Origin: Mobula hypostoma
Lineage: Eukaryota
Direction: 5' to 3'
DNA: 64,000 nucleotides
Assembly: GCF_963921235.1 (NCBI RefSeq)
Contig: NC_086097.1
Span: forward strand, 86,306,001 to 86,370,000
Both the position numbers and the translations under genes were made by a program. The stretch's first letter is position 1. Each line of letters begins with the position of its first letter. Of this stretch, positions 21,501 to 56,587 are shown in pieces. The notes under the pieces were generated by a model, which saw only the letters and a program-made list of their open reading frames with translations, was not told the origin of the DNA and searched no databases.

Positions 21501-22733
21501 GGTCCACAATTCTCATCACATTTCTGGAAGGCATTCTGTAAACTGATAGGGGCAATAGTAAGCCTTTCCTTTGGGTTTCACCAACAGTCCAGCAGCCAGA
21601 CAGAGCGGACCAACCAGGATTTAGTATGTACCCTGAGGTGCCTGGCCTCGGAAAGACCTGATGAGTGGTGTGACCATTTGATGTGGGCAGAGATTGCCCA
21701 CAAAACCTTACAGCACTTGGAGCACAGGATGTCACCATTCGAGTGCCAGTTTGGTTATCCTCCATCTCTCTTTCTGGAACAAAAAGCCGGTGTTGGGGTC
21801 CCTGCAGCAGAAGATCTTGTCCAGTGCTGCAAGGAGAAATGGATGAGGGCAAGAGGGATTTTGCTTTCCTCTGCCGGGAGAGCAGAGACCAAAGCAAACT
21901 GAAGGAGAAGTCTGGGACCTGCTTTACAGCCTGGGCAACAGGCCTGACTGTCCACTCAGGATTTGCCTCTCTGATTGGAATCAAGAAATTTGGCACCCAA
22001 GTTCATTGGTCCCTATAAGATTCTGAGAAAAGTAATGCTGGTGGTTTCCACCTTACAGCTCCTCAAGATTAGAAAGATCAGCCATACCTTCCACCTCTCT
22101 AAAGTAAAACCTGTCCACACCAGCCCCTTAATCCCACTACCATCAGTCCTGCTGCCAGGTTTTAACAAGGCGGAACAGGTCTTCATGGTGAAAAGACTTT
22201 TGGACTTGTGTATTGTTCAAGGTGTTCGGCAATACCTAATGGAATGGGAGGGATTCGGACGAGAAAAGAGCTGCTGGGTGCCAGAAATAGACATCCTGGA
22301 TCACACTCTCATGCATGATTACCATCACCACCTCTCCTTCTCCGAGCAACCAGGGACATCAGGAGTCAGCCGTACGGGAGGGGGTCCTGTTACGAGATGC
22401 TCCCAACCTTGCCAACTTCCAAAGTTTAAACACTCTAACTTTCCAGAGTATGGATAGCTAGTGCAGCCCCTTTAAGGGCTTAGGACATTCCCGTTAATTA
22501 ATAACCATGTTTTGGGCGCCAAGAATCAGTACTTAAGGAACACCTGAACTTAGGTTCAGTGCTCAATCATAAGTCTATCAGTGATTTCATCTAGCATTTG
22601 TTTTGTGCTCAGTTTCACGATCCCATTTGAGACAGTGTATCGATCCCAGTTATGATTAGCAAATTTGCGAATTTCTAGATGTGATACTCCATGATTTGGG
22701 TCCAAGCCAGCCTTGTCAAGGACTCTCATCACA
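18563..22733 (+). mobile_element. Degenerate Ty3/Gypsy chromovirus (sushi-like); 5' LTR and most of gag missing
   Basis: CFYCGEAGHLRAEC knuckle (~18597-18638), FVDSG protease, PCIDYRGLN and [14 protein letters not shown] and ERNYDIGNR RNase H, HHCC and core integrase, chromodomain QYLMEWEGFG, then PPT and TGTTAC. Confidence 0.93.
22388..22733 (+). repeat. 3' LTR of the Gypsy element (right end approximate)
   Basis: Starts TGTTAC directly after the GGGAGGGGG purine tract and probably ends at ..CATCACA. Confidence 0.65.
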
Positions 22734-28470: not shown

Positions 28471-29006
28471 CTCATGGCTTTTACATTTTATCACCGGAGA
28501 TTAAACATGTCAAATTATCATTTTCTTTGAAAACACTGGATTTATTTAAACATTATTTTTTTAAATGATTGAGGAGGGGAGAAGGGTGTTAGATAGTGTG
28601 GAGTGATTACTGGTAGAGTGGAAGGAAAAGGAAAAACTTTATAGGACTATTTTCCACCAGGATTATCTAGGACTCAAGATGGAACAATCAGAGTTGTTGA
28701 CAAGAAGAGAAGCAGGTGGTCCCAAGATTAATAATATTTTATCTAAATCTGATTTATTAGAACAAGGAATGGAATAGAAACAGAAAATCCAGCCAGAGGT
28801 ACTGAAGCAGACTGCTCTAGATCAGTCAGACTCCGAAGCAACAATAATCTATCTTGATGCAAATATTCAATTTTGTTTTCTAAACACATCCTCATCTCCA
28901 AATTCCATCAGGAACCAACAAGTTAAAAGACTCCCTTCTGTGCCAGTGTGATATTCAGATTAGGTTTGCCAATGTTGGTAGGATATATTCTTGGACTTCT
29001 TATCAT

Positions 29007-31886
29007 GTGACCTTATGCAAAAGATCCATGATAATGCCATTCGCTGAAGCTATTCGGCGAGACCCCAAAATATCTGCTCCAGACATAAGACTAAAGTCAC
29101 ATAAAGTTACATTGTATGCGGATGATGTTCTAATTTTCTTATCAGACCCTGTTATATCAGTGCACCACCTTATACAATGCATCAATTCATTTAGCGCTTT
29201 TTCGGGTGATAAAATAAACTTTACTAAATCAGAGGCTATGCCTCTGGGGAATCTGCAGCCAGAACCTGACACTCAGGGTGTTTTCCCCTTTAAATGGTCG
29301 CAGACAGGTTTTGTTTACTTAGGCATATTTATCACACCTATATTTAATCAATTGTTCAAAGCTAACTTTACACAGTTATTTGACAAAATCAAACAGTGCA
29401 GAGAGACAGAGGGGTGTAAAGTGAGCGTAGAAGCAAAAAGTACAAAGGAGAAAAGTAAAAGTGGCAGGCCGACAAATCCAGGGCAAGCATTAAAAAGGGC
29501 TAAGAGAGTTATAAAAGAGCGCCTGAAGGCTTTATGTGTCAATGCAAGGAGCATTCGTAATAAGGTGGATGAATTGAAAGTGCAGATTGTTATTAATGAT
29601 TATGATATAGTTGGGATCACAGAGACATGGCTCCAGGGTGACCAGGGATGGGAGCTCAACGTTCAGGGATATTCAATATTCAGGAGGGATAGACATGAAG
29701 GAAGGGGAGGTGGGGTGGCGTTGCTGGTTAAAAAAGAGATTAACGCAATAGAAAGGAAGGACATAAGCCGGGAAGATGTGGAATCGATATGGGTAGAGCT
29801 GCATAACACTAAGGGGCAGAAGACGCTGGTGGGAGTTATGTACAGGCCACCTAACAGTAGTAGTGAGGTCGGAGATGGTATTAAACAGGAAATTAGAAAT
29901 GTGTGCAATAAAGGAACAGCAGTTATAATGGGTGACTTCAATCTACATGTTGACTGGGTGAACCAATTTGGTAAAGGTGCTGAGGAAGAGGATTTCTTGG
30001 AATGTATGCGGGATGGTTTTTTGAACCAACATGTCGAGGAACCAACTAGAGAGCAGGTTATTCTGGACTGGGTTTTGAGCAATGAGGAAGGGTTAATTAG
30101 CGATCTTGTCGTGAGAGGCCCCTTGGGTAAGAGTGACCATAATATGGTGGAATTCTTCATTAACATGGAGAGTGACATAGTTAATTCAGAAACAAAGGTT
30201 CTGAACTTAAAGAGGGGTAACTTTGAAGGTATGAGACGTGAATTAGCTAAGATAGACTGGCAAATGACACTTAAAGGATTGACGGTGGATATGCAATGGC
30301 TAGCATTTAAAGGTTGCATGGATGAACTACAACAATTGTTCATCCCAGTTTGGCAAAAGAATAAATCAAGGAAGATAGTGCACCCGTGGCTGACAAGAGA
30401 AATTAGGGATAGTATCAATTCCAAAGAAGTAGCATACAAATTAGCCAGAGAAAGTGGCTCACCTGAGGACTGGGAGAAATTCAGAGTTCAGCAGAGGAGG
30501 ACAAAGGGCTTAATTAGAAAGGGGAAAAAAGGTTATGAGAGAAAACTGGCGGGGAACATAAAAACGGACTGTAAAAGCTTTTATAGATATGTAAAAAGGA
30601 AAAGACTGGTAAAGACAAATGTAGGTCCCCTGCAGACAGAAACAGGTGAATTGATTATGGGGAGCAAGGACATGGCAGACCAATTGAATAATTACTTTGG
30701 TTCTGTCTTCACTAAGGAGGACATAAATAATCTTCCAGAAATAGTAAGGGACAGAGGGTCCAGTGAGATGGAGGAACTGAGTGAAATACATGTTAGTAGG
30801 GAAGTGGTGTTAGGTAAATTGAAGGGATTGAAGGCAGATAAATCCCCAGGGCCAGATGGTCTGCATCCCAGAGTGCTTAAGGAAGTAGCCCAAGAAATAG
30901 TGGATGCATTAGTGATAATTTTTCAAAACTCGTTAGATTCTGGACTAGTTCCTGAGGATTGGAGGGTGGCTAATGTAACCCCACTTTTTAAAAAAGGAGG
31001 GAGAGAGAAACTGGGGAATTATAGACCGGTTAGCCTAACGTCGGTGGTGGGGAAACTGCTGGAGTCAGTTATCAAGGATGTGATAACAGCACATTTGGAA
31101 AGCGGTGAAATGATCGAACAAAGTCAGCATGGAATTGTGAAAGGAAAATCATGTCTGACGAATCCCATAGAATTTTTTGAGGATGTAACTAGTAGAGTGG
31201 ATAGGGGAGAACCAGTGGATGTGGTATATTTGGATTTTCAAAAGGCTTTTGACAAGGTCCCACACAGGAGATTAGTGTGCAAACTTAAAGCACACGGTAT
31301 TGGGGGTAAGGTATTGGTGTGGGTGGAGAATTGGTTAGCAGACAGGAAGCAGAGAGTGGGAATAAACGGGACCTTTTCAGAATGGCAGGCGGTGACTAGT
31401 GGGGTACCGCAAGGCTCAGTGCTGGGACCCCAGTTGTTTACAATATATATTAATGACTTGGATGAGGGAATTAAATGCAGCATCTCCAAGTTTGCGGATG
31501 ACACGAAGCTGGGTGGCAGTGTTAGCAGTGACGAGGATGCTAAGAGGATGCAGGGTGAATTGGATAGGTTGGGTGAGTGGGCAAACTCATGGCAGATGCA
31601 ATTTAATGTGGATAAATGTGAAGTTATCCACTTTGGTGGCAAAAATAGGAAAACAGATTATTATCTGAATGGTGGCCGATTAGGAAAAGGGGAGGTGCAA
31701 CGGGACCTGGGTGTCATTATACACCAGTCATTGAAAGTGGGCATGCAGGTACAGCAGGCGGTGAAAAAGGCGAACGGTATGCTGGCATTTATAGCGAGAG
31801 GATTCGAGTACAGGAGCAGGGAGGTACTACTGCAGTTGTACAAGGCCTTGGTGAGACCACACCTGGAGTATTGTGTGCAGTTTTAG
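29007..31886 (+). CDS. 959-aa chimeric ORF: L1 RT fragment fused in frame to CR1 ORF2 (expression unknown)
   Basis: Contains LYADD (L1) and KFADD (CR1). Junction at ..KIKQ|CRETEG. Confidence 0.35.
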   Translation: MTLCKRSMIMPFAEAIRRDPKISAPDIRLKSHKVTLYADDVLIFLSDPVISVHHLIQCINSFSAFSGDKINFTKSEAMPLGNLQPEPDTQGVFPFKWSQTGFVYLGIFITPIFNQLFKANFTQLFDKIKQCRETEGCKVSVEAKSTKEKSKSGRPTNPGQALKRAKRVIKERLKALCVNARSIRNKVDELKVQIVINDYDIVGITETWLQGDQGWELNVQGYSIFRRDRHEGRGGGVALLVKKEINAIERKDISREDVESIWVELHNTKGQKTLVGVMYRPPNSSSEVGDGIKQEIRNVCNKGTAVIMGDFNLHVDWVNQFGKGAEEEDFLECMRDGFLNQHVEEPTREQVILDWVLSNEEGLISDLVVRGPLGKSDHNMVEFFINMESDIVNSETKVLNLKRGNFEGMRRELAKIDWQMTLKGLTVDMQWLAFKGCMDELQQLFIPVWQKNKSRKIVHPWLTREIRDSINSKEVAYKLARESGSPEDWEKFRVQQRRTKGLIRKGKKGYERKLAGNIKTDCKSFYRYVKRKRLVKTNVGPLQTETGELIMGSKDMADQLNNYFGSVFTKEDINNLPEIVRDRGSSEMEELSEIHVSREVVLGKLKGLKADKSPGPDGLHPRVLKEVAQEIVDALVIIFQNSLDSGLVPEDWRVANVTPLFKKGGREKLGNYRPVSLTSVVGKLLESVIKDVITAHLESGEMIEQSQHGIVKGKSCLTNPIEFFEDVTSRVDRGEPVDVVYLDFQKAFDKVPHRRLVCKLKAHGIGGKVLVWVENWLADRKQRVGINGTFSEWQAVTSGVPQGSVLGPQLFTIYINDLDEGIKCSISKFADDTKLGGSVSSDEDAKRMQGELDRLGEWANSWQMQFNVDKCEVIHFGGKNRKTDYYLNGGRLGKGEVQRDLGVIIHQSLKVGMQVQQAVKKANGMLAFIARGFEYRSREVLLQLYKALVRPHLEYCVQF

Positions 31887-33950
31887 TCCCCTAATCTGAG
31901 GAAAGACATCTTTGCCATAGAGGGAGTACAAAGGAGGTTCACCAGATTGATTCCTGGGATGGCAGGTCTTTCATATGAAGAAAGACTGGATGAACTGGGC
32001 TTGTACTCGTTGGAATTTAGAAGATTGAGGGGGGATCTGATTGAAACGTATAAGATCCTAAAGGGATTGGACAGGCTAGATGCGGGAAGATTGTTCCCGA
32101 TGTTGGGGAGGTCCAGAACGAGGGGTCACAGTTTGAGGATAGAGGGGAAGCCTTTTAGGACCGAGATTAGGAAAAACTTCTTCACACAGAGGGTGGTGAA
32201 TCTGTGGAATTCTCTGCCACAGCAAACTGTTGAGGCCAGTTCATTGGCTATGTTTAAGAGGGAGTTAGATATGGCCCTTGTGGCTACAGGGGTCAGGGGG
32301 TATGGAGGGAAGGCTGGGTTCTGAGTTGGATGATCAGCCATGATCATAATAAATGGTGGTGCAGGCTCGAAGGGCCGAATGGCCTACTCCTGCACCTATT
32401 TTCTATGTTTCTATGTTTCTATCTTGAGTGATGGAGCACTCTTCCTATTTCTTGGCTTGGCCGAATATCCTTGCTCAAAATGAACAGTCTGCCTCGTCTG
32501 CTCTAGCCAATATGAATGATTCCAGTCATGGCTGGTGTGTCTCTTTCATCTGGAACAAAAAAAGACCCTGTATTAAAATGGCTAAGTTACAGATTCCCAG
32601 TAGTCTAGGGGGTCTGGATTGTCCAGACATCAAAAAATATCAATTAAGTTCCTTTTTATCTTATGTGGTTGACTGGGTTTGCAGGGACCCCTCCTCAATT
32701 TGGCTGGACATTGAAGCTTCACAAGCAAAATGCCCTCTTATTAATTTGCTTTTCCTCAATAAGATGAAACTAGTTAAGGAATATTGTTGCAATCCAATAA
32801 CAATTAATACAGTCAGGGCTTGGAGGGCGGTGCAACAAATTAAGGGCAACGCAGCGAAAATATCACCCTTCACTCCAATAACCGGCAGTCCAGATTTTCA
32901 GCCTGGCATAATGGATTCTGGACTTAAACTTTGGATTTCTAAGGGTATTTTCCATCTAGGAGATTTGTTTGATGAAGGAACGATGATGTCTTTTAGCCAA
33001 ATAGCACAGAAATTTAACATACCCAACAAGGATCTTTTTCGCTTCTTTCAGATAAGAGATTATTTTCAGAAAAAAACATCATTATTAACTGATTTCTATA
33101 GTTCTGACATAGAAAAGAGGGTGTTTCGTTCTAAAGGTGAAGTCTCCATTAGTACTTTTTACAGCATCCTGAGGGAATGTTCTTGTGGAGAGACTGAGCA
33201 GCTGGGAAGGGTCTGGGAGGAAAAGCTGGGAGTAGAAATTACAGCTGAAACATGGGAAGACATCTGTGATAATGCAAAGAAAATTTCAGTTTGTAACAGA
33301 ACTAAAGCATTGCAACTCAAAATTCTGCATAGAGACCACCTGACTCCAGATCGCCTCTCGAAATTTAAGACGGGAGTTTCTCCAATGTGTTCTAAATGTA
33401 AAGTAAATACTGGAACTTTCACCAACTGTTTTTGGACTTGTCCCAAACTTCAGGCATACTGGAGTGATATTTTGGGTGAAATGGAAAAGAATCTGAAGAT
33501 GGAGTTTGAACTGGACCCAGTGTCTTTTCTCTTAGGCTTACCCAGCAGTCGTATTAATAATGCACATCAGAAAAAACTTTTTAACATCCTGACTTTTTGT
33601 GCGAGGAAGAACATCTTACATTGTTGGATATCCAATAAGGCCCATGGACTTTTTGGTTGGTGTAAGTTAATCACAGAATACATTCCTTTGGACTTTTTGA
33701 CATGTATAGTACACTCAAAAACAAATAGTCTTCATAAAACATGGCAACCTTTTCTGCAGTACGTAGGTGTAAACCTGTCTGCTATACTAATAAGGGCTTT
33801 TATATAGGATGTTGGGGCGATGTCTATATTTTGATGGAAGTGTTCTGATAGCTGATATCTGTGAGGGGAAGAAATGTAAATGTATCTGTAAATTGAAAGT
33901 TTTGTTATGCTGAGCAAAAAATAAATAAATAGATATTAAAAAACAAATCA
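29030..33950 (+). mobile_element. L1-clade LINE, 5'-truncated, split by a young CR1
   Basis: HKVTLYADDVLIFL..FSGDKINFTKS..KIKQ, resuming at 32422 as LE*WSTLPISWLGRISLLKMN, FIWNKKRP, CSKCK..CFWTCP. AATAAA and A-rich end. Confidence 0.9.
29397..32421 (+). mobile_element. Young CR1 copy with near-intact ORF2 (single TGG>TAG stop at 31884-31886)
   Basis: Continuous APE-RT frame up to the stop, continuing in frame to 32324. (TTCTATGT)n tail. Confidence 0.95.
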
Positions 33951-37587: not shown

Positions 37588-39565
37588 TAGAAACATAGAA
37601 ACATAGAAAATAGGTGCAGGAGTAGGCCATTCGGCCCTTCGAGCCTGCACCGCCATTTATTATGATCATGGCTGATCATCCAACTCAGAACCCCGCCCCA
37701 GCCTTCCCTCCATACCCCCTGACCCCCGTAGCCACAAGGGCCATATCTAACTCCCTCTTAAATATAGCCAATGAACTGGCCTCAACTGTTTCCTGTGGCA
37801 GAGAATTCCACAGATTCACCACTCTCTGTGTGAAGAAGTTTTTCCTAATCTCGGTCCTAAAAGGCTTCCCCTCTATCCTCAAACTGTGGCCCCTCGTTCT
37901 GGACTTCCCCAACATCGGGAACAATCTTCCTGCATCTAGGCTGTCCAATCCCTTTAGGATCTTATACGTTTCAATCAGATCCCCCCTTAATCTTCTAAAT
38001 TCCAACGAGTACAAGCCCAGTTCATCCAGTCTTTCTTCATATGAAAGTCCTGCCATCCCAGGAATCAATCTGGTGAACCTTCTTTGTACTCCCTCTATGG
38101 CAAGGATGTCTTTCCTCAGATTAGGGGACCAAAGCTGCACACAATACTCCAGGTGTGGTCTCAGCAAGGCCTTGTACAACTGCAGTAGTACCTCCGTGCT
38201 CCTGTACTCGAATCCTCTCGCTATAATTGCCAGCATACCATTCGCCTTTTTCACCGCCTGCTGTACCTGCATGCCCACTTTCAATGACTGGTGTATAATG
38301 ACACCCAGGTCTCGTTGCACCTCCCCTTTTCCTAATCGGCCACCATTCAGATAATAATCTGTTTTCCTATTTTTGCCACCAAAGTGGATAACTTCACATT
38401 TATCCACATTAAATTGCATCTGCCATGAATTTGCCCACTCACCCAACCTATCCAAGTCACCCTGCATCCTCTTAGCATCCTCCTCACAGCTAACACTGCC
38501 ACCCAGCTTCGTATCATCCGCAAATTTGGAGATGCTGCATTTAATTCCCTCATCCAAGTCATTAATATATATTGTAAACAACTGGGGTCCCAGCACTGAG
38601 CCTTGCGGTACCCCACTAGTCACCACCTGCCATTCTGAAAAGGTCCCGTTTATTCCCACTCTTTGCTTCCTGTCTGCTAACCAATTCTCCACCCACACCA
38701 ATACCTTAACCCCAATACCGTGTGCTTTAAGTTTGCACACTAATCTCCTGTGTGGGACCTTGTCAAACCGCCTTTTGAAAATCCAAATATACCACATCCA
38801 CTGGTTCTCCCCTATCCACTCTACTAGTTACATCCTCAAAAAATTCTATGAGATTCATCAGACATGATTTTCCTTTCACAAATCCATGCTGACTTTGTCC
38901 AATCATTTCACCGCTTTCCAAATGTGCTGTTATCACATCCTTGATAACTGACTCCAGCAGTTTCCCCACCACCGACGTTAGGCTAACCGGTCTATAATTC
39001 CCCGGTTTCTCTCTCCCTCCTTTTTTAAAAAGTGGAGTTACATTAGCCACCCTCCAATCCTCAGGAACTAGTCCAGGATCTAACGAGTTTTGAAAAATTA
39101 TCACTAATGCATCCACTATTTCTTGGGCTACTTCCTTAAGCACTCTAGGATGCAGACCATCTGGCCCTGGGGATTTATCTGCCTTCAATCCCTTCAATTT
39201 ACCTAACACCACTTCCCTACTGACATGTATTTCGCTCAGTTCCTCCATCTCACTGGACCCTCTGTCCCCTACTATTTCTGGAAGATTATTTATGTCCTCC
39301 TTAGTGAAGACAGAACCAAAGTAATTATTCAATTGGTCTGCCATGTCCTTGCTCCCCATAATCAATTCACCTGTTTCTGTCTGCAAGGGACCTACATTTG
39401 TCTTTACCAGTCTTTTCCTTTTTACATATCTATAAAAGCATGTACAGTCCGTTTTTATGTTCCCTGCCAGTTTTCTCTCATAATCTTTTTTCCCCTTCCT
39501 AATTAAACTCTTTGTCCTCCTCTGCTGAACTGTGAATTTCTCCCAGTCCTCAGGTGAGCCACTTT
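37588..39565 (-). mobile_element. Young CR1 copy, 5'-truncated
   Basis: ORFs 38763..39386 and 37685..38797 are nearly identical to the 29397-32421 copy, with one frameshift near 38770. (AGAAACAT)n tail. Confidence 0.95.
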
Positions 39566-44171: not shown

Positions 44172-44380
44172 AGCAACACACATAGAAGTTGCTGGTGAAC
44201 GCAGCAGGCCAGGCAGCATCTCTAGGAAGAGGTACAGTCGACGTTTCGGGCTGAGACCGTTCATCAGGACATGAAACGTCGACTGTACCTCTTCCTAGAG
44301 ATGCTGCCTGGCCTGCTGCGTTTACCAGCAACTTTTATGTGTGTTACTTGAAATTCCAGCATCTGCAGATTTCCTCGTGC
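44172..44380. mobile_element. Penelope-derived foldback mini-element
   Basis: ~75-bp near-perfect inverted arms. 14-bp TSD TCAATATTGCTACT (44158-44171 / 44381-44394). Confidence 0.9.
44237..44270 (-). ncRNA. Minimal hammerhead ribozyme motif (stem II partly mutated)
   Basis: Minus strand reads GTC-CTGATGA-ACGGTCTCAGCCC-GAAA-CGTC-GAC. Confidence 0.6.
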
Positions 44381-45624: not shown

Positions 45625-46991
45625 TCGGGACAAGGGACCCTCCAATAATCATTCAAAAATGTGAAGCATGCAGCTTTGAATACACATTCAGGAATGATCC
45701 ACCTGAATGATGCTCATCTAAAAACCAGAAGATCACACTCCCCTGAGGTGAATAACTCTGTTTTGATCCATATTACCAGGCCAACGTCATCATGTGTTTT
45801 GAACGGAGCACTTGTGTCCAGTGATATGACATTGAAGGGCTTGAAAGGAGCTTCGACACTTCAAATTTGCATATATTTTCTTACTCTATATTGTTAACCT
45901 GTTGACCTGTTTATCTTAAATTGATTAGTAACGTGCCAAGGAGAGAAATAAAGACTTTTAGGTGAATATGTTCAGCTTTCATATACAGTATCCCTCAGGT
46001 CTATTCAGTATTGGATTTGCTAAATTGTATATGACAGAACCTGGGTATTGTAAAATGAAATTGTTTCTGTCAGCTCAAGACTTCCCTATTGATGGCCTCA
46101 GTAGCAGATGACCAAGTTGCATATTATCCACTATTAGCTTTGCTTCACATTCATAATCAATTTCAAGACTTCAGGAAGAAGCAGTGTTTCATGCACGCCA
46201 AATTGATGTAGAATTAAGAAAATCAATGTCGAAGTGAATTATGTAATTCTCAGTGAAGTTGCTGCTGCTTGTATGAAGACTGGAACATTACCTGTTGGGT
46301 TGGGCGAATGGCCCGTCAAATCATATAATGCAGCTTCTCACAGTGGAACAGGGAGTTATGGAAAATTTCAGAGCAGCTGCAGAGTGTTATGCCCTAAAGG
46401 CAGCAGTACCCTGCCAGGTGAAACTGTTACTGCAGAAGCATTCAGCCAGGCCATCAGCATTACTTTATCAAGATTCACAATGACATCCTCACATGGCTAA
46501 CGATAACTGATTCAGCCACCGCTGACCCTTGCTTTCATCTGTGTGGATGATTGAAGAACAGTTGTATCTTAGGAGTCTGTTTGTGGGCCTGTGTCATTAT
46601 AGAAGGCGTATATGATTGCAGTTTGTTTTGTTAGTGTCATAACTAAATGGAAATTCTCCAAATCATGATGAATAGCTTTGTCATCAGCTTGCAAAATAAG
46701 CACTCGAATGAATTTGCAATGGTGAGCATCCACTGAAGGAAGGGCTCATTATATTTGGGCATGCACAGAGGCACGAAGTAGCACCAGTTTTTGTTCTTGA
46801 CAAATGATTGAATATATGAACCATGGATATGAATACTAGAAAATTAACGATGCCTGCGCTGCAGAATGTCAGAAGTGTACAGATAGTTGGTGATGCGGAT
46901 GGTTCAAAGTCAAGCTTTACAATCTCTTAGCACACAGCACTGAGATCCAATGGCAGAGTAAATAAAAGTACTGCAGATGCCAGAAATCCCG

Positions 46992-47990
46992 AAGTTCAAA
47001 AGTTCGAAGTAAAATTATTAACAAAGTACATATATGTCACCATCTACAACCCCGAGATACATTTTCTTGAGGGCATACACAATAAATCCAAGAAACACAA
47101 TAAAATCAATGAAAGACCACACCCAACAGGACAAACAATGTATAAAAGACAACAAACAGTGCAAGTGCAAATACAAAAGGAAAAATATAATAAATAAATA
47201 AGCAATAAATATCAAGAACATGGGGATGAAGAGTCCTTGAAAGTGAGTGTATACATTGTGGGAACAGTTCAGTGACAGGGTGAGTGAAATTGAGTGAAGT
47301 TATCTCCTCTGGTTCAAGAGCCTGATGATTGAAGAGTAATAACCGATTACAAACTTGGTGGTGAGTCCTGGGGCTCCTGTGCCTTCTTCCAGATGGCAGC
47401 AGTGAAAAGAGAGCATGGCCTGGTGGGGTTTAATGATGGCAATGCTTTCCTGCGACAATATAGATGTGCTCAAAGGTGGGGAGGGTTTTAATCATGAGGG
47501 ACTGGACCGTATCCACTACTTTGTGTAGGACTTTTTGTTTGAGGGTATTGGTGTATTGCAATGAGCGAATGAAGTGAACCCAAGTGCAGGACACAGGCAT
47601 GGAGATTGAGTTAGGATGCTTACGCAGACGTGAATGTTGAACAGCAAACAGCAGGGATCTGGACACGGAGCCTTGACACAGAGAGATGGAGTTTCAAAGG
47701 TAAACCTTGAAACTGGAGCAAAACTTAGAACACACGGTCCTAAGCGGCCGGGAAACGTTAATTACCACACAGGCAAAACCAACGATCTGGCGACTGGTGC
47801 TTGTAACGCCGGGGTTCTTATGCTGCAGGTCTTGATAGAAACCAGGTATGCCATCATCAAAGAGAATTAGAAGCAAATGAGAAATTGACAGTCGGAACTG
47901 TGGCACAATCAAAGGAAATTAGGAGAAATATATGGAAGTAATGATCGGGACCATGACATGATGTTTCCATATCAGGCTGTGATGCAACAT
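46992..47990 (-). mobile_element. Rex1/Babar-like 3' fragment split by a solo LTR
   Basis: Reverse-complement match to 14270-14835. Resumes at 47959. Confidence 0.8.
47554..47958 (-). mobile_element. Solo LTR, same family as 49618-50879
   Basis: Ends GATCGGGACCATGACA. Imperfect TSD TGGTG/TGATG. Confidence 0.7.
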
Positions 47991-49617
47991 CTGAAAAAGA
48001 AACATAAAATCTAAAACAGAAATAAATATTGCAGGAAATGTGTGCCCAGTGAGGACTCAATAAAGGGAACTTTCAAACCAATGAGCTATCATCAGAAGTT
48101 GGATCCCATAACTTTAATGACTAAACCCTTATGTTGTTGGTTTGTCTGCCATTTACTGTATTTTCTGATGACTTTTAATGATTGAACTTGTTTATGAGGT
48201 AACAGTTGAAGGGAAATTGGAAGGCATTAGAATGGAGATGGGATGGCAGAGCAATGTACCCTGACACAGTTAGTGGTCTGTCAGTGAAAAACTGTCCACT
48301 AGCCTGACAGGCTGCTTACAGTTGACACTTGGGCAGTCACTTTCTGAAGCCGATGACATTGATCACAGGTGGAAGCATGATCCTTTGATAAAACTGTTCC
48401 ATATTCTTCTGTGGACCCCATTCCTCTGCCTTTGTGTGTATTTCTGACAAATGGATGCTAAGTTGATTTTATGCTCAATTCAAGGTCCAGCAGTTAGAGA
48501 ATTAAGAGGATGCACAATAACTTTAAAGCACTTGTCTATTTATTCATTACGTGAGAGAACCTAATATCTAACTTAGCGCCCTCAGACCCGAGTCTACTGG
48601 AGAGCGTCTTTGTGTTAATGCCAGTTTGTCTTTTGTCGATTGCACTGATTGTGACAGAGTCCGGTGGTGAAACCTCCCCTATAACTGGTGGAGTGGTTGT
48701 GTTTGCCCCATTATAATTCTAGGAGAAAGTGATACCTCACCCCTTGCACAATCTAGTCCTTCTTCACACAAGAATGCCACCACAACCGTGCCCTGACAGA
48801 GTTCAGTGAGATCAGCGAGTTCCATGATATTGTAAATCTAGCAGAGCAACTGTCAGCCATTAATCACAAATCTTGTTTGGAGATGTTTCAATAAACTCAG
48901 CTACCCTTTATTCAGTTTAACATGGCAGGTGTTCCAAAAAGTTCACACATTGTTTGACTTAATATTTCCACCGCTCAATCTATCTGAGCAGCGCAGCACT
49001 ACAACTACAAGCGTAATAAAGCATTACATTCGGCCCACAGGCAAGCGTGTTACAGCAAGCAGGTTACAATTCAGCCCCTGGTTGATCCCTTAATAGTTCC
49101 ATCAGTGTTCAGAGCTGACAGATCCGTGACAGCTTTGTTTCATGCCCAATGCTTGTTATCATTCAGAGGAGCTGGAATCAGTGCTTCAGTGCTGGAGAGA
49201 GTTGGAACTCAGTGGCAAAACCACCATTTTGATCATCCGATTAGCGTATTCAGACAGCATTCAGATGTATCACTGATCACTGATGTTGTGGCGAGGAGCA
49301 ACAACAATGTCGTAGCCATTTCTGCAATGTAAGAAAGTACACAATCACCTCCTTTTAGTTAGTCGCTGGGTGTTAAGGCAAACAGGTTTTTCATTCCTCA
49401 GTATCACCGCCCAGCACGTAGGACTAGGTCCACAGACTACTACCTCATGCCTGCCACTGTATATAGAGGAACAGCACCGCCTGACTAGGCCTATATATCG
49501 TGGCAGGGTTTACTGACCATCCTCTGTTCTGCAGATAGGTTACTACCTGGTCCAACACCTCGGCCTCTACCCCCTTCCCCATTGAGCCCCTGCAATAATA
49601 TGTCCATATAATGGGTT

Positions 49618-50879
49618 TGTCACAAGTGCAGAGCACGGGTGGACCCCAATGCAGAACACAAACACGTTTTGTAGCATTAACAAAAATAGAGTTTATTAAT
49701 AGTTACTAGGAAAGCAGGGAAGCAAGGATTGTACAGAAAGACATCGAGGAGTGAATGAAATGGAAGCGGAAATATGCGTGGCTGGAGTTGAGCACAGACC
49801 CTGGACTTAGACTGGCACTCAGGGCCTGTGCTTGGCCTGGGACTCGGGAGCCGAACTTGGACTTGGCCTGGGCTTGGCCGAGGAACTTGGGACCTGGACT
49901 TGGACTGGGACTTAGAACTCGGGACCCGGACTTGGACTTGGAACTCGGAACATCTGAGCCTGGACTTGGAACTCGGAACATCGAAACACAGAGCTGGGAC
50001 TCTTCCTTGGATACAGGACACAGAGTTTGGACTCTTCTTGGACGCAGGACACAGAGCCGAGACTCTTCCTTGGACACAGAACACAGAACACGAAGGGACT
50101 GTTCTTCACTCAGGGTAGTGGCAAACGGCCGACCTACCCAGTGGAGGCGAAGACACACAGAGACAATTCCCAACTCAAGGTAGTGGCAAACAGCCGGACC
50201 TACCCAGTGGAGGCGAGGACACAAGGAAACAGTTCCCAACTAAAGGTAGCTGTAAAAGGCCATACTTACCCAGCGGAGGCAAGGATACAAGGAGACAGTT
50301 CCCAATGCAAGATAGCAGCAAACAGCCAGACCTACCAGGCGGAGATGAGGACACAAAGAGACAAAACCACACAGTGATAGACAGTCTTTTATCTTGGCAC
50401 AAAGTGGCTCCAGGTAATGGCGAGCTCTCAACTTGGCCCCGGAACTACAGACAGCGGCTCTAAACTCACTCCGGCAAGTTAACTTGACGGAACCGCTCCG
50501 GCGAGGGATCATAGCGGGCTCGCTCAGGCGCGGTAACTTGACAGGCTGGGTCCAGCAATGAGAGGCGACTTACTAGCACTCGCTTCGGGGAGAAGACTTG
50601 ACTTGCTCCGGCGATGTGACTTAGCTCGCTCCAGCAAGGCGGCTTGCTCGCACTTGCTTCGGTGACGTGAGGGGACGTCAGGTGACGGTCTAGAGCCAAG
50701 CAGCTGTATGCCCGACACTATATGTTGACCGTTCAGCTGAGAGTCAAGTGCCTTTAGTTATAGAGCCCAAGAAACATGGGGAAACAATGAAGTAAAGGAA
50801 AACAAGGAGTCAACGGTCCCGATCGTGACACAAGGGAAATTTAAAGGGAACCAGGGAATAACTGATCAGGACCATGACA
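49618..50879 (-). mobile_element. 1262-bp solo LTR with internal tandem arrays
   Basis: TGTCA...TGACA termini. Perfect 5-bp TSD GGGTT (49613-49617 / 50880-50884). Confidence 0.88.
50115..50362. repeat. ~66-bp minisatellite, about 4 units
   Basis: Units start at 50115, 50180, 50246 and 50312. Confidence 0.85.
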
Positions 50880-52826
50880 GGGTTACTGAGTTAGTTGGGT
50901 CAAGTGAGGTCCTCTGCAAATCCTGAGCCATTATCCCATGACACAAGGTTGGTCTATGCACAGATCCCTGGGGAAGGCAGAAAGATGTATATTGTCTCAC
51001 TGCCCAGGGAGACAATATACTAGTCTTGGGAGATAGGATGTAAAGGGGAAAAAAAACATTTGCCAGATCAACAGGAGCATTCTGCTTCTTCCCTCCAATG
51101 TCCTCTGCTATGGTTACCACATGGAGGGGGGCAGCAGTGGTTGGGGTGGAGCATACTTGTTCAGGTGTGTGAAATCAATGGTCATCCATTTCGGGACATT
51201 TCCCCTTCCCCAGTATACGGCAATTGGAACATGACGCCTCAGGTCTCCAGGCTGGGAAAGGGCTGCCCAGCATATCCACCAGGAGCTCTGGTCTCACCCC
51301 GATGGAGTGGTGATGGGAGTTACCCCTTGATGCACACCCTCCCTGGTCCAAAGTTCTAAAGCAGTTAGGGAGGGGTATAGTGATGGGGCTTTCTCTCTCA
51401 CTGGAAGCCAAGTCCTCTCCTGCCCCCTGTGAGGATCTCCAGGGGCCATAGCACTGGGATGGTTATACTGTCCATCTGTTCCTTGGCTACGTCAGCCTTC
51501 AAGAGGGCAAAAAGCATTTCTTTGTGTGATAGAAGCAGCCCCCACCCCCTTTAGTCTTCTCAATCTTATGCACCTGGCTATGGCCACAGCTCTCGGTAAC
51601 ATGGTCCAACTCATCTACGAGTTGTATGGCTGCAACCACTTTCTCTCCACAAAGGGTCCCACCCATTGTTGTATTATTCCTTCAGATGGGCGTTACTGTT
51701 TTTACCAGATACCCTACCATGGTTGAGATGAACTTTTGATCCTCTGGCGGGTTTCCCCATCCACATAAATCCCAGTGATCAGGGCCCACTGATGGAGAGC
51801 TTTAGTCCTCTTCTCCACCGTGTTCCACTCTTCTCTAGATTTTACGTTCCAATCCAACAGAGAGGGGAGTTTACCCTCTACCAAATAGAATGATCCATTC
51901 TATTTATTTCCCATAGGGGCATTGTTTACCTCCTAGTTTGATGATAATCCTCCCAGGCCACCATTTCCCAGTTGAATAAGATCACTGCACATCCCCCTGC
52001 ACCACATATCCTTAACAATCATGCCACTAATGGTTTCCCCGATTTCACCGATCCCCCAGCTCCACCAGTTTGTTGGGGAGTAGTCTTTAGAGATTTCAGC
52101 ATCAGTCTCTCACCACTTTAGACTGGACTGGTGATATGTAGGTGTTGGGCTTTAGCTATGGAGCGGTCCCATGTCAGTGCGATTGTCTGCTAGTATTGGG
52201 GTGGATATCTAGTGAGTGGGGGAGGAGTCAGGACCCCAGTCCAAATTTCCTGAGGGGTGTCATCATCAAACCATATTTCTCCATCCTATATATCCAGGTC
52301 ATTTCCCCTCAATATAAGGAGCAGACCTTAACGGGGCCTGGCTGCCAGTTGACCCTTCACATGGCCTCTTCTTGCCACACCTTTGCCAGATGATATGCTA
52401 TTTCAATATATATCTTCCACTTCTTTAGCCCAAGTATGTGCCAACCCAGTGTCCTTTACCATAGTCAAACACCATAGATTTAGGGCCTCAATGTCTAGTT
52501 TTAAGCTCTCAATTTCTTCCCCCTCTAAGAGATTGTCACACATTGTTGTTTAAAAAGGGCCACCAGCAACAAAAAAGCCCCTCTCTGACTCCCTTTCTTA
52601 CCTGGGAAGCCTGTTTCCTTGTGAATGCAAACTAAGTGGAGACCCAATTTTAATTCCACGTGATTTCATCTCCAATCCACTGGCATCCCTGAGGCTGCCA
52701 ACAGATTGGCTAATCTGCCGATACACGAGGAATTATCTGTCCATCCTGGTATCCAATACCCTTCAGAACCAGAATCACTCTTCTTATTAGTCCTAAACAA
52801 ACTAAACATACCTCAACTCACACCAG

Positions 52827-52844
52827 ATCCTGCTGACTACGCCA
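52827..52844 (-). promoter_or_regulatory. Primer-binding site complementary to the tRNA-Ser 3' end
   Basis: Minus strand TGGCGTAGTCAGCAGGAT, 2 nt after the LTR end GTAACA. 17/18 match to the recalled vertebrate tRNA-Ser 3' end ATCCTGCCGACTACGCCA. Confidence 0.85.
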
Positions 52845-54939
52845 AATGTTACACTCAATTTGAGATCCAGTGGAGAGAGAACTAGAGGGTGCACAACTCA
52901 AGGAAACTTAATACAAATACTTAGCACCCACAGATCCTGAGTCTAATGCAGAGCATCTTCATTCCCTCTTCTGTCGACAGAATTGCTTGTGATAAGGTCT
53001 GGTGGTGATGCCCCCTTGTAAGCATGGTGGTTGTGCCTGTCTCAGTTATACTTCTTCCAGGAGGAAGTGATACCTCACACTTGCAGAGACAACTTTTCCT
53101 TCACCACAGGGGAATTCACAGTTATCTACCAGAGAATGCATTTGCTAATGATTTATCTCACTAATGCTTTAAGATTGCTTTGAATACTCTTTGCATCTTC
53201 TTCCCAGTTCACAATCCCACTGCACAAGATTATGTTCTGGTCCCTCATTCCAATCATTGACACATATCCTGAATAACTGAGGTCCAAGCATTGATTCTTC
53301 TGTGTCCCAATTAATTATTGCTTGCTACACCCCAGAAGGACTCATTTATTCCTCCTCTGCCGTGGATCAAAATCGGAGGCAGAGCTGAACAAAAGGATTT
53401 AAGGATCAGGTTTGTAAATCATTGAACCATAATTAAGAGGGTTACACATTACCGAAAGACCTGATCAAGATTCTTTCCTTAATAAGAGGTTCATTAAGGT
53501 TCTACTTCAGTTATACAGAAGCATGCCCAGGTTCTATCTGTAATATTGTACTCAGTATCACACATCTCCTCATAGCAAGAAAATACAAACTTGGGAAGAA
53601 AGTGAAAACCATTTTCCAGGATGATACCCACAGTAAAAGAGGGTTCCTTGTTTGTGGTTTGATCAGTTGATGATTAAATTTGGTATAAATAAGCACCTAG
53701 AAATTGGATCATGTCGTGATGTTTAGGTGCTAATCAATGAAAATGGTTGTTGCCTGAAGGAGAATTCATGAGCAAGCAATTCAGGTGAACTTTTGCCTGC
53801 TGCAAAATTGGATTGGGCACTTCCATGCACAATCGACATCAGCACAGCTGACCTTTTCCCCCACATCTGGAACACACCGAACAATGTCATTACTCACAAT
53901 GGTCATTTTCACCTGCACACAAACACTGGAGCTGAAAGCTTGTCAAACAGTTGCAGCAGAATTAAGAGCAGATTTAGTTTGTTGTATTTTTTATTATTTG
54001 GAAAGGCTCTGGCCATAGGGTGACTTGGCACCTTTAGATTTCACTGTGATCTGCTTAAGCGAAATCCAAGGTCCAGAGTGTGTTTATGTCTGTTGCGAAT
54101 ATTTTCCCAGCATTTACTGCTATGATATCCATTCTATGGCTACTATCCATGGCAGGTACTCTCATCATGGCCACAGTTGGCTAGACGGGCAAGTTAAGAA
54201 CATTATGGCAGGAAGCAAAACCTGCTGATCAGTGAAGAATCTATTCCCAGAGAATCCTTAGGAACACCAAATCCTACTTTGATTTTTCTGTTGAACAATG
54301 CAGTTTGTTCAGATTTTCCAGGACTGTCATCACTGAGTATGTCTTCAGGAAGGCCTTTAGTCAGACACTTGAACTGGATCCATGGAAGGAGAGCACATCT
54401 CAGGGCAGTATAGATAGATAGATAGATACTTTATTGATCCCAAAGGAAATTACAGTGTCTGAGTAGCATTACATGGTACTCTGTATATCGTACTTTGATG
54501 GTATACTTACTTTGAACTTTGAACTTTTGAAGAGAACTGGGGTTAATGATAAAGCCCTCAACCAAAAATGTTATCGCTTTCTTCACATGCTGCTGGACAT
54601 GGAAAATAAATAGCCATTAGGGAGGCTGAAGTCATTTGCTCTTTTGAGGTCCATGCACCATTGCTCATGATGTAGACCAATTAGGTATTGTGAAAGTTTG
54701 AATCTACGGGTGTGGCTAAGGACGGTAAATGATAGGTGGTACTTGGATGTGAGTTGCATACTATTGGTCAGACTGTGCTGGCCTGCAGTTCTTTGTGTAT
54801 TAGTGGCAGGCATGAAGAATGCCAGCAATAAAATATCACAGAGCTTGTGGGACTCACTTTTCCATTATGTTGGGTTTTCCATTGAAATTGTAGCACATAG
54901 TGCACAAAATTTTGAAACCATTCTTTCCGCTTTCTAGGT

Positions 54940-55003
54940 CAGGGGTTCCCAACCTGGGGTCCATGGACCTTTTGGTTAATGGTAGAGGTCCACAGCACCC
55001 CTG
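54940..55003. mobile_element. 64-bp hAT-Charlie-like MITE
   Basis: CAGGGGT...ACCCCTG termini. Degenerate 8-bp TSD TTCTAGGT/TGCGAGGT. Confidence 0.7.
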
Positions 55004-55227
55004 TGCGAGGTAATTGTTCTTTATTTCACAAACTATTTCAGGTTATGCATTTTAGTTGGTATACTGAGTGTGCTAATTAACAATAGTTTATCCTATGATG
55101 AACTTTTTCCTTATAAAACATGCAAGACAGGTTTTTTCTGATAACCATGAAAATGTTTTAGAGTAACATTACACTCACTGGCAAATGAATAAACAGTATA
55201 GTGGTCTGAAGTTTATGCTACAGGAAT

Positions 55228-55933
55228 CTTCTTTTTCAAGTGCCTTGAGCATTACACGCTTGGGCGATCACAGCTTTCCACATCGAATGATCCCATGCAG
55301 TGTCAATATCTCGCACACTTAGATCTGTTAGTTCTTTCACAGTGTCCATATATTTTCTTCTTTGCCTTCCTCTTCCGCATTTACCAGGCATAGGACCTTG
55401 TAATGTAAGGCATTCTATTTCTCCCTTTCTAATGACAAGGGCCAAGAATTTAAGTTCCTTCTTATTTAATGTTCTCATTAAAGGTCTTTTTGTATGGGCA
55501 CGTTGGAGTACTGTCTCATTAGTTATCCTATCTCTATATCATATTTTCAGCATTCTTCTAAGAAACCACAGTTCTGTTGCTTCTAAGTTTCTTTGGAGTT
55601 CTGGTGTTATAGTCCATGTTTCGGAAGCATACAGCAAGATTGACCGGATGTAACATTTTAGTAGCCTAAGTCTTGTTGTCATAGAAATGTGTCTGTTGGT
55701 AAAAATAGGTTTCATTTTTTGCAAGTTGGTTTTGGTAATGGCAATTCTTCTTTTTATTTCTACTTTACTTCTAGCATCTTGTGATATAAAGCTACCAAGG
55801 TAATCAAAGCAGGTCTTTTGTCTGGTCTAACCGTCAACTGTAAAAAAAAACAAATGTATGGTAATATCAAAATAGCAGGATACTCCCAACTGCCAATTGT
55901 ACATCAGTAACCAAGAGATTGAACAAAAGACCA
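55228..55933 (-). mobile_element. RTE-clade LINE 3' part with an inverted 5' segment
   Basis: LLYASETWT, WFLRRML and GKCGRGRQR motifs. 11-bp TSD GCTACAGGAAT. 55823-55936 lies on the plus strand. Confidence 0.9.
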
Positions 55934-56587
55934 GCTACAGGAATAGGGGTTCAAAAGACCGAGTTCATAATATCAGCATGAGAATTCGAATTATGGTTAA
56001 AAAGATATCAGAAAATTAAAGAATAGTATCAGTAAAAGTGATGTTGATTGGTATATGGAAAAAGAATCAAACAGCCTGCATTCAACTTGAGTCTGGTAGC
56101 CGGTATTCTTGGAGTTTTGAGCACATGACATTTTTATCAAACTACGTCCGCCTGGTTGACAACAGAATGTACTGAGAGTTGATCAAATGACTTCTACATT
56201 CCTTACTAGTTGAACACCTAAGGTGGAGTACATTTGCTTGTGGTTTGGTGCCAATGGCTGCTACATGTGAGAGGTTCCAAGAACCAGAAGTTGGTCACAA
56301 TAACACAAAGTGAGGCCAGGAGAGGAAAGCAATGAACGGGAAGCTGGGAAAGCAAAAGGGCAGGGTAGGAAAGAGAAGAAACTGATGGCAGAGGAGAGTG
56401 GAGATCAAAATTGGGGAAGAGAATGTACTTAAATTGAAGAGGGTGTACAGGGGGTGAAATCAGGGATACCATGTTGGATGCCTAAAGGGAGGAAGTAATT
56501 CAAAAGGGATAATGATAATTATAATTGACAGAAATTACCCTGCATTATCTGTCGTCATGACCAAAGGCAATATGATAGTCCACCAAA

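What the first reader, a model, noticed from the sequence alone, without database searches (positions are those of the whole stretch)
48467..53130. Class III (ERV-L/ERV-S-like) endogenous retrovirus with a tRNA-Ser primer site in a probable cartilaginous fish
Seen on the minus strand, in order: LTR ending GTAACA (52847); PBS TGGCGTAGTCAGCAGGAT; gag-like remnants (WNTVEKRTKALHQWALITGIY; SHKEMLFALLKADVAKEQMD); a pre-protease-like DLRRHVPIAVYWG joined directly to RT (WMTIDFTHLNK, VDLANVFF, LPQGSVHRPTLCH, HYMD, LQNRGWSVNP); an integrase-tail-like stub; PPT-like CAGGGGCTGAA; second LTR (49068-48467). Established: DLANAFF, LPQGYxxSPxLCH and RGWEINP are ERV-L-type RT signatures, and HERV-S is Ser-primed. 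Inference: a non-foamy class III lineage, which is best known from amniotes. The ORF track mostly hides it because of frameshifts and a nested LTR.
Basis: partly seen in the sequence, partly recalled or inferred. Interest (0 to 1): 0.8.

Follow-up and report, generated by a model that had tools for sequence, protein, structure and literature searches.

The report
Gutted ERV-S-like provirus in rays
This is an old, dead retrovirus fossil of the ERV-L/ERV-S group in a ray-like genome, a group already reported from sharks; it lacks most of its enzyme genes, shares that loss with four copies elsewhere in the genome, and so likely spread by borrowing enzymes from an intact relative.

Summary
The RT remnant groups with mouse MuERV-L-cluster and frog XtERV-S Pol (97/99); trees joining it to gamma/epsilon-like or Gypsy RTs are rejected (AU p=0.0003). 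No SnRV, foamy or HERV-S row was available. The PBS complements host tRNA-Ser(AGA) (17/18). The host is a batoid. Novelty is small: a whale-shark ERV is listed beside HERV-L/HERV-S in Xu 2018, and XtERV-S has the same anatomy. DLANAFF is not ERV-L-specific. Corrections: the 5' LTR is a ~270-bp remnant, only ~77% identical to the 3' LTR; the nested LTR is 50879-49618 plus a 5-bp duplication, absent from an ortholog. Four other loci with unrelated flanks share the main deletion in register and form a clade with it (98/92): a small non-autonomous subfamily, likely mobilised in trans. The insertion is orthologous in three other organisms and about 4-5 times older than its split from the two more distant ones.

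The parts
52847..53115 (-). 5' LTR remnant (3' part only), ends ...GTAACA
   Evidence: aligns to 3' LTR 48790-48467, K2P 0.28 over 258 sites
52827..52844 (-). primer-binding site for tRNA-Ser(AGA)
   Evidence: 1 mismatch to the two Ser(AGA) genes compared (L076, L078), 0 to variant gene L075
51327..52803 (-). gag remnant, ERV-L/Fv1-like, broken by stops and frameshifts
   Evidence: tblastn with Hemitrygon Gag-Pol P0075, E 1.5e-26, and P0251, E 1.2e-18
51195..51254 (-). pre-protease stub and deletion junction 1 (protease and RT N-terminus missing, about 430-490 nt)
   Evidence: anchor gap 10 nt against 425-2812 nt in 11 of 12 loci holding both anchors; same junction in L032
50880..51185 (-). 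RT fingers/palm, first part (frameshifted)
   Evidence: 54-64 bits to the best ERV-L-group Pols, 32 to a gamma Pol, under 28 to Gypsy and epsilon-like; trees
49618..50879 (-). nested solo LTR of an unrelated high-copy family, 5-bp duplication AACCC at 50884-50880 and 49617-49613
   Evidence: 77-83% whole-length copies elsewhere, 4922 candidates of which 40 scored; skipped exactly (1267 nt) in the ortholog of organism E
49450..49617 (-). RT palm, second part, with YxDD lacking one acidic codon; ends at deletion junction 2 (thumb, connection, RNase H, integrase core missing)
49351..49446 (-). integrase C-terminal tail stub
   Evidence: matches residues 1545-1576 of Hemitrygon P0247 (E 0.004); DNA match to fuller copies
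49090..49319 (-). start of env (hydrophobic leader and SU N-terminus); rest of env deleted
   Evidence: homologous to the env start of L030 (CWVC), L062, L099; no TM match in 46000-56000 while 15 of 61 sequences have one
49070..49080 (-). polypurine-tract-like site
   Evidence: same position and similar sequence before TGTAA in fuller copies L033 and L062
48467..49068 (-). 3' LTR (602 bp, begins TGTAAC)
   Evidence: 14 of 60 held loci carry a match to this LTR, most ending ...AACA or similar; junction with flank bridged in organisms B, D, E

Best explanation
A decayed provirus whose RT groups with ERV-L/XtERV-S and whose primer site matches tRNA-Ser; it lacks protease, RT thumb, RNase H, integrase core and most of env, shares its main deletion with four other loci, and was likely copied and integrated by enzymes supplied in trans by an intact relative. 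Shown: anatomy, RT placement, shared junctions, unrelated flanks, orthology, later nested insertion. Inferred sequence of events: (1) a Ser-primed class III retrovirus with a gamma-type envelope entered the germ line of a batoid ancestor; (2) a genome lost the RT-thumb-to-integrase stretch and most of env, probably by template switching during reverse transcription, keeping LTRs, PBS, leader, gag start and PPT, the cis signals for packaging, priming and integration; (3) this RNA was co-packaged and integrated at new sites by helper Gag-Pol at least five times, with further lesions (YxDD codon loss, protease loss) arising and spreading; (4) the copy then decayed neutrally, lost its U3 side next to CR1 remnants and received a solo LTR in the lineage of organisms A and B. 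It most likely does nothing today.
For: Class: tblastn ranking; ML trees of natural open frames, ERV-L group 97/99 and 99/98, window piece inside its own genomic family 99/93; AU rejects class I or Gypsy grouping, p=0.00035 each. Anchors: P0059 lies in a Mus musculus cluster with dUTPase after integrase; P0077 (X. tropicalis) has DTG, DYRGLN and YIDD at the spacing of PMC8278194 Table 2 and is 17 aa shorter than its 1162-aa Pol. Non-autonomy: of 15 loci holding both anchors, 4 have the window's junction 2 (gap 3-10 nt), 9 have 1331-3721 nt between, 2 gave negative, spurious gaps; a genome search with the junction stretch gave 12 matches, 5 (window included) spanning it; junctions align in register; the five form a clade on RT-palm DNA that excludes the junction (98/92) and, four of them, on IN-tail/env DNA (88/80); 3' flanks of window, L016, L084, L032 score 25-33, the random level. 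Window, L016 and L084 share the 3-nt loss in YxDD, absent from 4 of 4 fuller copies aligned. None of the five has an env TM match; 15 of 61 sequences do. Age: orthologs differ by about 2% (organism B) and about 6% (D, E), LTR pair K2P 0.28.
Against: The helper was not identified: no full-length copy with this LTR type was found among 60 loci, and the fuller relatives carry other LTRs. Lesions are not strictly nested: L032 shares the protease loss with the window but not clearly the YxDD loss, while L016 and L084 share the YxDD loss but keep the RT N-terminus; this needs recombination between defective genomes or recurrence. The four other copies have lost their 5' LTR and PBS, and the 3' flank of L085 was not compared because its LTR is missing. 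The 5' and 3' LTRs are no closer to each other (0.28) than the 3' LTR is to other LTR copies (0.26-0.37), and no duplication can be read, so a single integration is not proven. The window RT row is short (40% of columns) and has a long branch; SnRV, foamy and HERV-S are not in the trees; class I is represented by two rows only.
Confidence: 0.8

Rival explanations
1. Same class III provirus, but the five deleted copies arose by DNA-level duplication of one deleted locus (segmental duplication or conversion), with no trans-mobilisation.
For: All copies are old (66-75% identical), so old duplicated flanks could have been overwritten; four lack 5' ends.
Against: Homology stops at the LTR end and 760-nt 3' flanks are unrelated in the four copies compared; copies lie on four contigs (C1, C5, C45 twice, C96).
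Confidence: 0.07
2. The deletions recurred independently after integration at short repeats, so each copy was an autonomous virus when it integrated.
For: Junction 1 lies in a short repeated GAAGGG-type sequence; loss of one of two tandem Asp codons can recur; lesions are not strictly nested.
Against: Junction 2 is in register in five loci and absent from 9 fuller copies; the five are monophyletic on sequence outside the junction.
Confidence: 0.06
3. The element belongs to the SnRV-like or foamy-like part of class III, not the ERV-L/ERV-S part.
For: Neither lineage could be put in the tree; elephant-shark class III ERVs were described as SnRV-like (PMC4422223); one bird study files SnRV-like ERVs under an ERV-L-related group (PMC12287698).
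Against: A genomic relative's RT frame (L046) scores 499 bits with its best ERV-L-group protein against 89-92 bits with foamy RTs and 110 with MLV RT (different databases); Hemitrygon RT is 57-61% identical to the MuERV-L and XtERV-S anchors against 33-36% to class I; the Gag resembles Rh_ty_ERV3 (listed with HERVL/HERVS), not Rh_ty_ERV2, which is listed with SnRV and has a zinc knuckle (compared by eye).
Confidence: 0.05
4. A Gypsy retrotransposon or an epsilon/gamma-like ERV.
For: DLANAFF-type motifs also occur in epsilon-like fish ERVs; relatives carry a gamma-type TM.
Against: Under 28 bits to all Gypsy and the epsilon-like RT, 32 to gamma; AU p=0.00035; class III pol with class I TM is the known XtERV-S arrangement.
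Confidence: 0.02

Closest known systems
XtERV-S of Xenopus tropicalis (Yedavalli et al. 2021, PMC8278194; abstract and parts 1-3 of 7 of the main text read)
   Same: ERV-L-related gag-pol, PBS for tRNA-Ser(AGA/TGA), LTRs TGT...ACA, CXXC near the SU N-terminus and gamma-type TM with ISD and CX6CC (here in fuller relatives), and a set of internally deleted copies that keep PBS, leader, 5' gag and PPT.
   Different: XtERV-S is recent and intact; this copy is old and dead. The deleted copies here keep an RT-palm stub. The paper reports a dUTPase-like fold after integrase by modelling; none is detected here by sequence, nor in P0077 by Pfam.
Rh_ty_ERV3 of the whale shark, clade Huo (Xu et al. 2018, PMC6001957; parts 1-2 of 5 of the text, S2 Fig text, and passages of S2 Data seen)
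   Same: Cartilaginous-fish ERV listed beside HERVL, Murine_ERVL and HERVS; its Gag shows motifs in the same order as the window's remnants (by eye).
   Different: Shark, not ray; no PBS, env or deleted subfamily was seen in the passages read; branch order was read from PDF text, not from the drawn tree.
MuERV-L / HERV-L
   Same: Same RT clade; Gag related to proteins that NCBI names Fv1-like.
   Different: ERV-L has a dUTPase after integrase and is env-less (PMC8278194); its Leu primer is recalled. This family has a Ser PBS, no dUTPase match and env in fuller copies.
HERV-S / ERV-S
   Same: Ser primer and class III RT; env present and no dUTPase (these HERV-S traits are recalled, not from a call).
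   Different: No HERV-S sequence was available, so sister relationship is untested; the PBS letter alone does not show kinship.
Non-autonomous ERV morphs: ETn/MusD, IAP I-delta-1, RecKoRV, bovine ERVK[2-1-LTR] D-type (PMC10924933, passages read); mammalian MaLR (recalled)
   Same: Cis signals and gene ends kept, central enzymes lost, several insertions share the lesion; spread attributed to trans-complementation.
   Different: Only five copies found; simple deletions, no swapped-in foreign segment; class III backbone in a cartilaginous fish.

Membership tests
Class III, ERV-L/ERV-S clade | RT groups with MuERV-L/XtERV-S, apart from class I and Gypsy | tested here: met
Class III, ERV-L/ERV-S clade | RT groups apart from SnRV and foamy viruses | tested here: inconclusive
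   no SnRV or foamy row could be obtained for the tree; foamy only by phmmer score of a relative; Spuma protease search rang nowhere, controls included
Class III, ERV-L/ERV-S clade | ERV-L/Fv1-type Gag | tested here: met
   E 1e-18 to P0251, named Friend virus susceptibility protein 1-like
Class III, ERV-L/ERV-S clade | LTR termini TGT...ACA | tested here: met
   3' LTR starts TGT (49068), 5' LTR ends ACA (52847); the 3' LTR end has decayed to AAA
Class III, ERV-L/ERV-S clade | 5-bp target-site duplication | tested here: inconclusive
   left end lost in the window; not resolved in 8 two-LTR loci and 8 solo-type LTRs examined
Class III, ERV-L/ERV-S clade | YIDD catalytic motif | tested here: inconclusive
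   window lacks one acidic codon; fuller relatives have YIDD (L034) or YMDD (L058)
ERV-L proper (MuERV-L/HERV-L) | dUTPase after integrase | tested here: not met
   no match in 61 sequences with the P0059 dUTPase region; Pfam finds none in Hemitrygon P0075
ERV-L proper (MuERV-L/HERV-L) | env-less, Leu primer (Leu recalled) | tested here: not met
   Ser PBS; TM in 15 of 61 sequences
ERV-S / XtERV-S-like | tRNA-Ser(AGA/TGA) PBS | tested here: met
   17/18 to common gene; 8 of 60 loci within 4 mismatches on the element strand (one, in L034, far from the element), 0 of 60 on the other strand
ERV-S / XtERV-S-like | gamma-type env (SU CXXC, TM ISD and CX6CC) | tested here: met
   met in relatives: L030 TLV_coat E 4.6e-05, CWVC and CX6CC; the window keeps only the env start
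ERV-S / XtERV-S-like | sister grouping with HERV-S or XtERV-S inside the clade | tested here: inconclusive
   base of the ERV-L group is unresolved; the family groups with Hemitrygon P0008 (98/91), not specifically with XtERV-S; HERV-S not available
Non-autonomous ERV morph | cis signals kept, enzymes lost | tested here: met
Non-autonomous ERV morph | same lesion at several independent insertions | tested here: met
   5 loci, clade 98/92, unrelated 3' flanks in the 4 compared
Non-autonomous ERV morph | helper element identified, mobilisation shown | not testable with these tools
   no full-length copy with this LTR among 60 loci; the family is dead
Ty3/Gypsy or class I (gamma/epsilon) | RT grouping | tested here: not met
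   AU p=0.00035 for both

The most novel reading that the evidence does not exclude
A batoid-specific lineage of Ser-primed, enveloped ERV-L/S-type retroviruses spawned an ancient non-autonomous subfamily that went on spreading and recombining after losing integrase, RNase H, envelope and even its RT catalytic motif: an independent, cartilaginous-fish parallel to the deleted XtERV-S copies and to mammalian MaLR-type parasites of ERV-L, datable through orthologous insertions across rays.
Probability: 0.6. Interest if true: 0.4.

Novelty: new member of a known kind. Interest (0 to 1): 0.27.

Why it matters
It adds a ray family, with primer site and envelope type, to a lineage known in sharks mostly from RT screens, and supports the view that Ser-primed class III gag-pol with a gamma-type envelope is widespread outside amniotes. 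The shared deletions show that parasitism of ERV-L-type viruses by gutted derivatives also happened in cartilaginous fish. The orthologous insertion, with a later lineage-specific nested LTR, is a usable marker for dating and for neutral-rate estimates in rays. None of this would surprise a paleovirologist much.

Tried and rejected
Pfam on 9 element frames found nothing at E<=1 but one DUF at 0.16: the pieces are too decayed. PDB search with the RT piece gave only foamy RT at E 0.24-0.44, not informative alone. A viral-contig scan for SnRV/foamy references could not run on alignment A1. The Spuma protease search rang nowhere, controls included, so it shows nothing. One paper id tried for Hayward et al. 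2015 was not held; that study is cited only through PMC4977317 (passages). ERV-SA.a-Ppe (class III Pol, class I env; bioRxiv 2021.11.23.469661, passages) may be a batoid element, but the host name was not in the text and its supplements are closed; this may bear on novelty. Target-site duplications could not be resolved. No full-length copy with the window's LTR was found. Absolute dating: the shark rate assumed by Han 2015 (2.2e-10) would give about 640 My, older than jawed vertebrates, so it cannot apply; the mammalian rate quoted there gives about 64 My. No RNA holder listed. Repbase/Dfam cannot be searched here. Literature searches found no paper on this ray family or its deleted subfamily; the library lacks most subscription journals. 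Scan look-ups by sequence and by words returned nothing.
Full report
Setting. The window is G000:C1:86306001-86370000 of a 3.48-Gb assembly. Its long frames look transposon-derived (six were scanned). A CR1-type LINE frame (37685-38827) is 75-92% identical to named ray proteins (Mobula, Leucoraja, Hypanus; Pristis 61-63%), 71-74% to a bamboo shark and Callorhinchus, and about 41-56% to birds and turtles. The host is a cartilaginous fish, most likely a batoid (inference from a vertically inherited LINE).

Observation. The 3' LTR runs 49068-48467. The 5' LTR survives only from about 53115 to 52847; the two align at 76.7% over 258 ungapped sites, K2P 0.28. No further LTR sequence lies upstream, where CR1 remnants are found. 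The nested element is 50879-49618 with AACCC on both sides. It belongs to a high-copy family (4922 candidates, 40 scored; best copies 77-83%). A contig of organism E joins 49612 to 50880, skipping exactly 1267 nt with 5 letters fitting either side, so the RT palm is continuous in nature and the insert is younger than the split from E; organism B has the insert.

Primer. The PBS complements the 3' end of host tRNA-Ser(AGA): 8 of 8 loci fetched with the tRNA-end pattern are Ser(AGA) genes (9 matches), the two compared differ from the PBS at one base, and a variant gene matches exactly. The mismatch sits at a CpG and fits decay (inference); relative L049 has the exact complement.

Class. On the unedited stretch, the best ERV-L-group Pols score 54-64 bits, an opossum gamma Pol 32 bits, the epsilon-like and all Gypsy proteins under 28. 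The gag remnant matches Hemitrygon Gag-Pol (E 1.5e-26), whose cluster has 5 of 13 members named Fv1-like. Anchors were identified indirectly: P0059 by its mouse cluster and dUTPase, P0077 by host and by motif positions matching XtERV-S in PMC8278194. In a 79-row RT tree (17 ids named for dropping as near-duplicate or partial, 8 Gypsy rows kept, 28 proteins left out for short RT cover) the window's main RT frame falls in a 10-row clade of this genome's family (99/93) inside the ERV-L group (97/99). A 28-row tree repeats this (99/98) and places the family with Hemitrygon P0008 (98/91); AU tests reject grouping with class I or Gypsy (p=0.00035). Limits: short row, long branch, two class I rows, no SnRV, foamy or HERV-S. 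Foamy RTs score 89-92 bits with a genomic relative that scores up to 499 with ERV-L-group proteins. Fuller relatives carry a gamma-type env (CWVC, ISD, CX6CC; TLV_coat) and no dUTPase match. The family therefore works like XtERV-S/ERV-S and is not ERV-L proper.

What the element is structurally. Against XtERV-S Pol only residues 2-26 and about 191-346 are matched, plus an integrase-tail stub matched by Hemitrygon P0247. Three deletions explain this. Junction 2 (about 49450) fuses the end of the RT palm to the integrase tail. Of 15 loci with both anchors, L016, L032, L084 and L085 have the same junction, 9 keep 1.3-3.7 kb between, 2 were spurious; the genome search found the same five spanning matches among 12; they align in register. 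These five form a clade on RT-palm DNA (98/92, 27 of 61 sequences covered the stretch) and their 3' flanks are unrelated in the four that have an LTR end. None of the five has an env TM, against 15 of 61 sequences overall; L032 and L084 keep a little more env 3' sequence than the window and L016. Junction 1 (protease and RT N-terminus) is shared only with L032, 1 of 12 loci. The 3-nt loss in YxDD is shared by the window, L016 and L084, is absent from L085 and 4 fuller copies, and is unclear in L032. A genome without integrase and RNase H cannot integrate itself (established retrovirus biology), so several insertions sharing that loss imply complementation in trans, as documented for ETn/MusD, IAP I-delta-1, RecKoRV and bovine D-type ERVK (PMC10924933). 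The non-nested pattern of the smaller lesions points to recombination between co-packaged defective RNAs or to recurrence; I cannot tell which. The helper was not found. Among the copies held, the window is the only member of this subfamily with PBS, gag and parts of both LTRs.

Age. Contigs of organisms B, D and E bridge the 3' LTR-flank junction. Summing listed pieces, B differs at 85 of about 4470 sites (1.9%), D at 197 of about 3360 (5.9%), E at 87 of about 1360 (6.4%). The LTR pair distance of 0.28 is 4-5 times the A-D/E distance, so the insertion is that much older than the split if rates were even and both LTRs come from one integration; the latter is not proven, since other LTR copies are as distant (0.26-0.37, 14 loci). 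Absolute age is at least tens of millions of years; see Tried and rejected for rates.

Prior knowledge. Xu et al. 2018 state that clade Huo, which includes class III ERVs, infects all major vertebrate lineages, and their S2 Fig lists whale-shark Rh_ty_ERV3 with HERVL, Murine_ERVL and HERVS (order read from PDF text). Its Gag shows the same motifs as the window's remnants by eye. PMC11089739 finds clade III the majority of ERV RTs in cartilaginous fish. XtERV-S has the same anatomy and its own deleted copies. I found no paper on this ray family or its deleted subfamily; Dfam and Repbase were not searchable.

Verdict. A real, correctly classed, dead class III ERV of a known kind; the added value is the small non-autonomous subfamily and a datable orthologous insertion. 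Interest 0.27.

Noticed in passing
L052, L056, L057, L059 (G000 small contigs C163, C123, C135, C140): Copies of a related class III family carry tandem 27-codon repeats inside the RT palm, and near-identical matches recur on several small contigs: possibly an amplified satellite-like or duplicated unit.
   Followed up: no
L046-L057, L059, L063, L065: The genome holds at least one further, less decayed ERV-L-group family, several copies with a Ser-type PBS and two with a gamma-type TM match, forming its own RT clade.
   Followed up: partly
P0250, P0251, P0254-P0256 (Hemitrygon akajei): NCBI names several stingray ORFs 'Friend virus susceptibility protein 1-like'; they cluster with ERV Gag-Pol and may be plain proviral gag, but a domesticated Fv1-like gene in rays was not excluded.
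   Followed up: no
L027:2161-2996 (element strand); also L026, L028, L046, L054: The same or a related nested LTR family also sits inside or beside other class III copies. Its parent element was not classified: the long frame in L110 is an RT of unclear type.
   Followed up: partly
L067-L074: The exact 15-nt PBS core occurs at 8 other non-tRNA loci examined; only L069 has ERV-L-type gag beside it, others follow different LTR-like ends, so other Ser-primed LTR families probably exist.
   Followed up: partly
window 44172-44348: Inverted repeat with 76-nt arms, 96% complementary, 25-nt spacer; MITE-like or fold-back.
   Followed up: no
window 47910-47958: Start of another LTR-like repeat related to the nested LTR (71% over 49 nt); high-copy in sequencing runs.
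   Followed up: no
window 21456-22457: Remnant of a chromodomain-bearing Gypsy element (SH3_Tf2-1 and Chromo).
   Followed up: no
window 28884-33807: A CR1-type LINE with a 1000-aa open frame appears inserted into another LINE-like frame.
   Followed up: no
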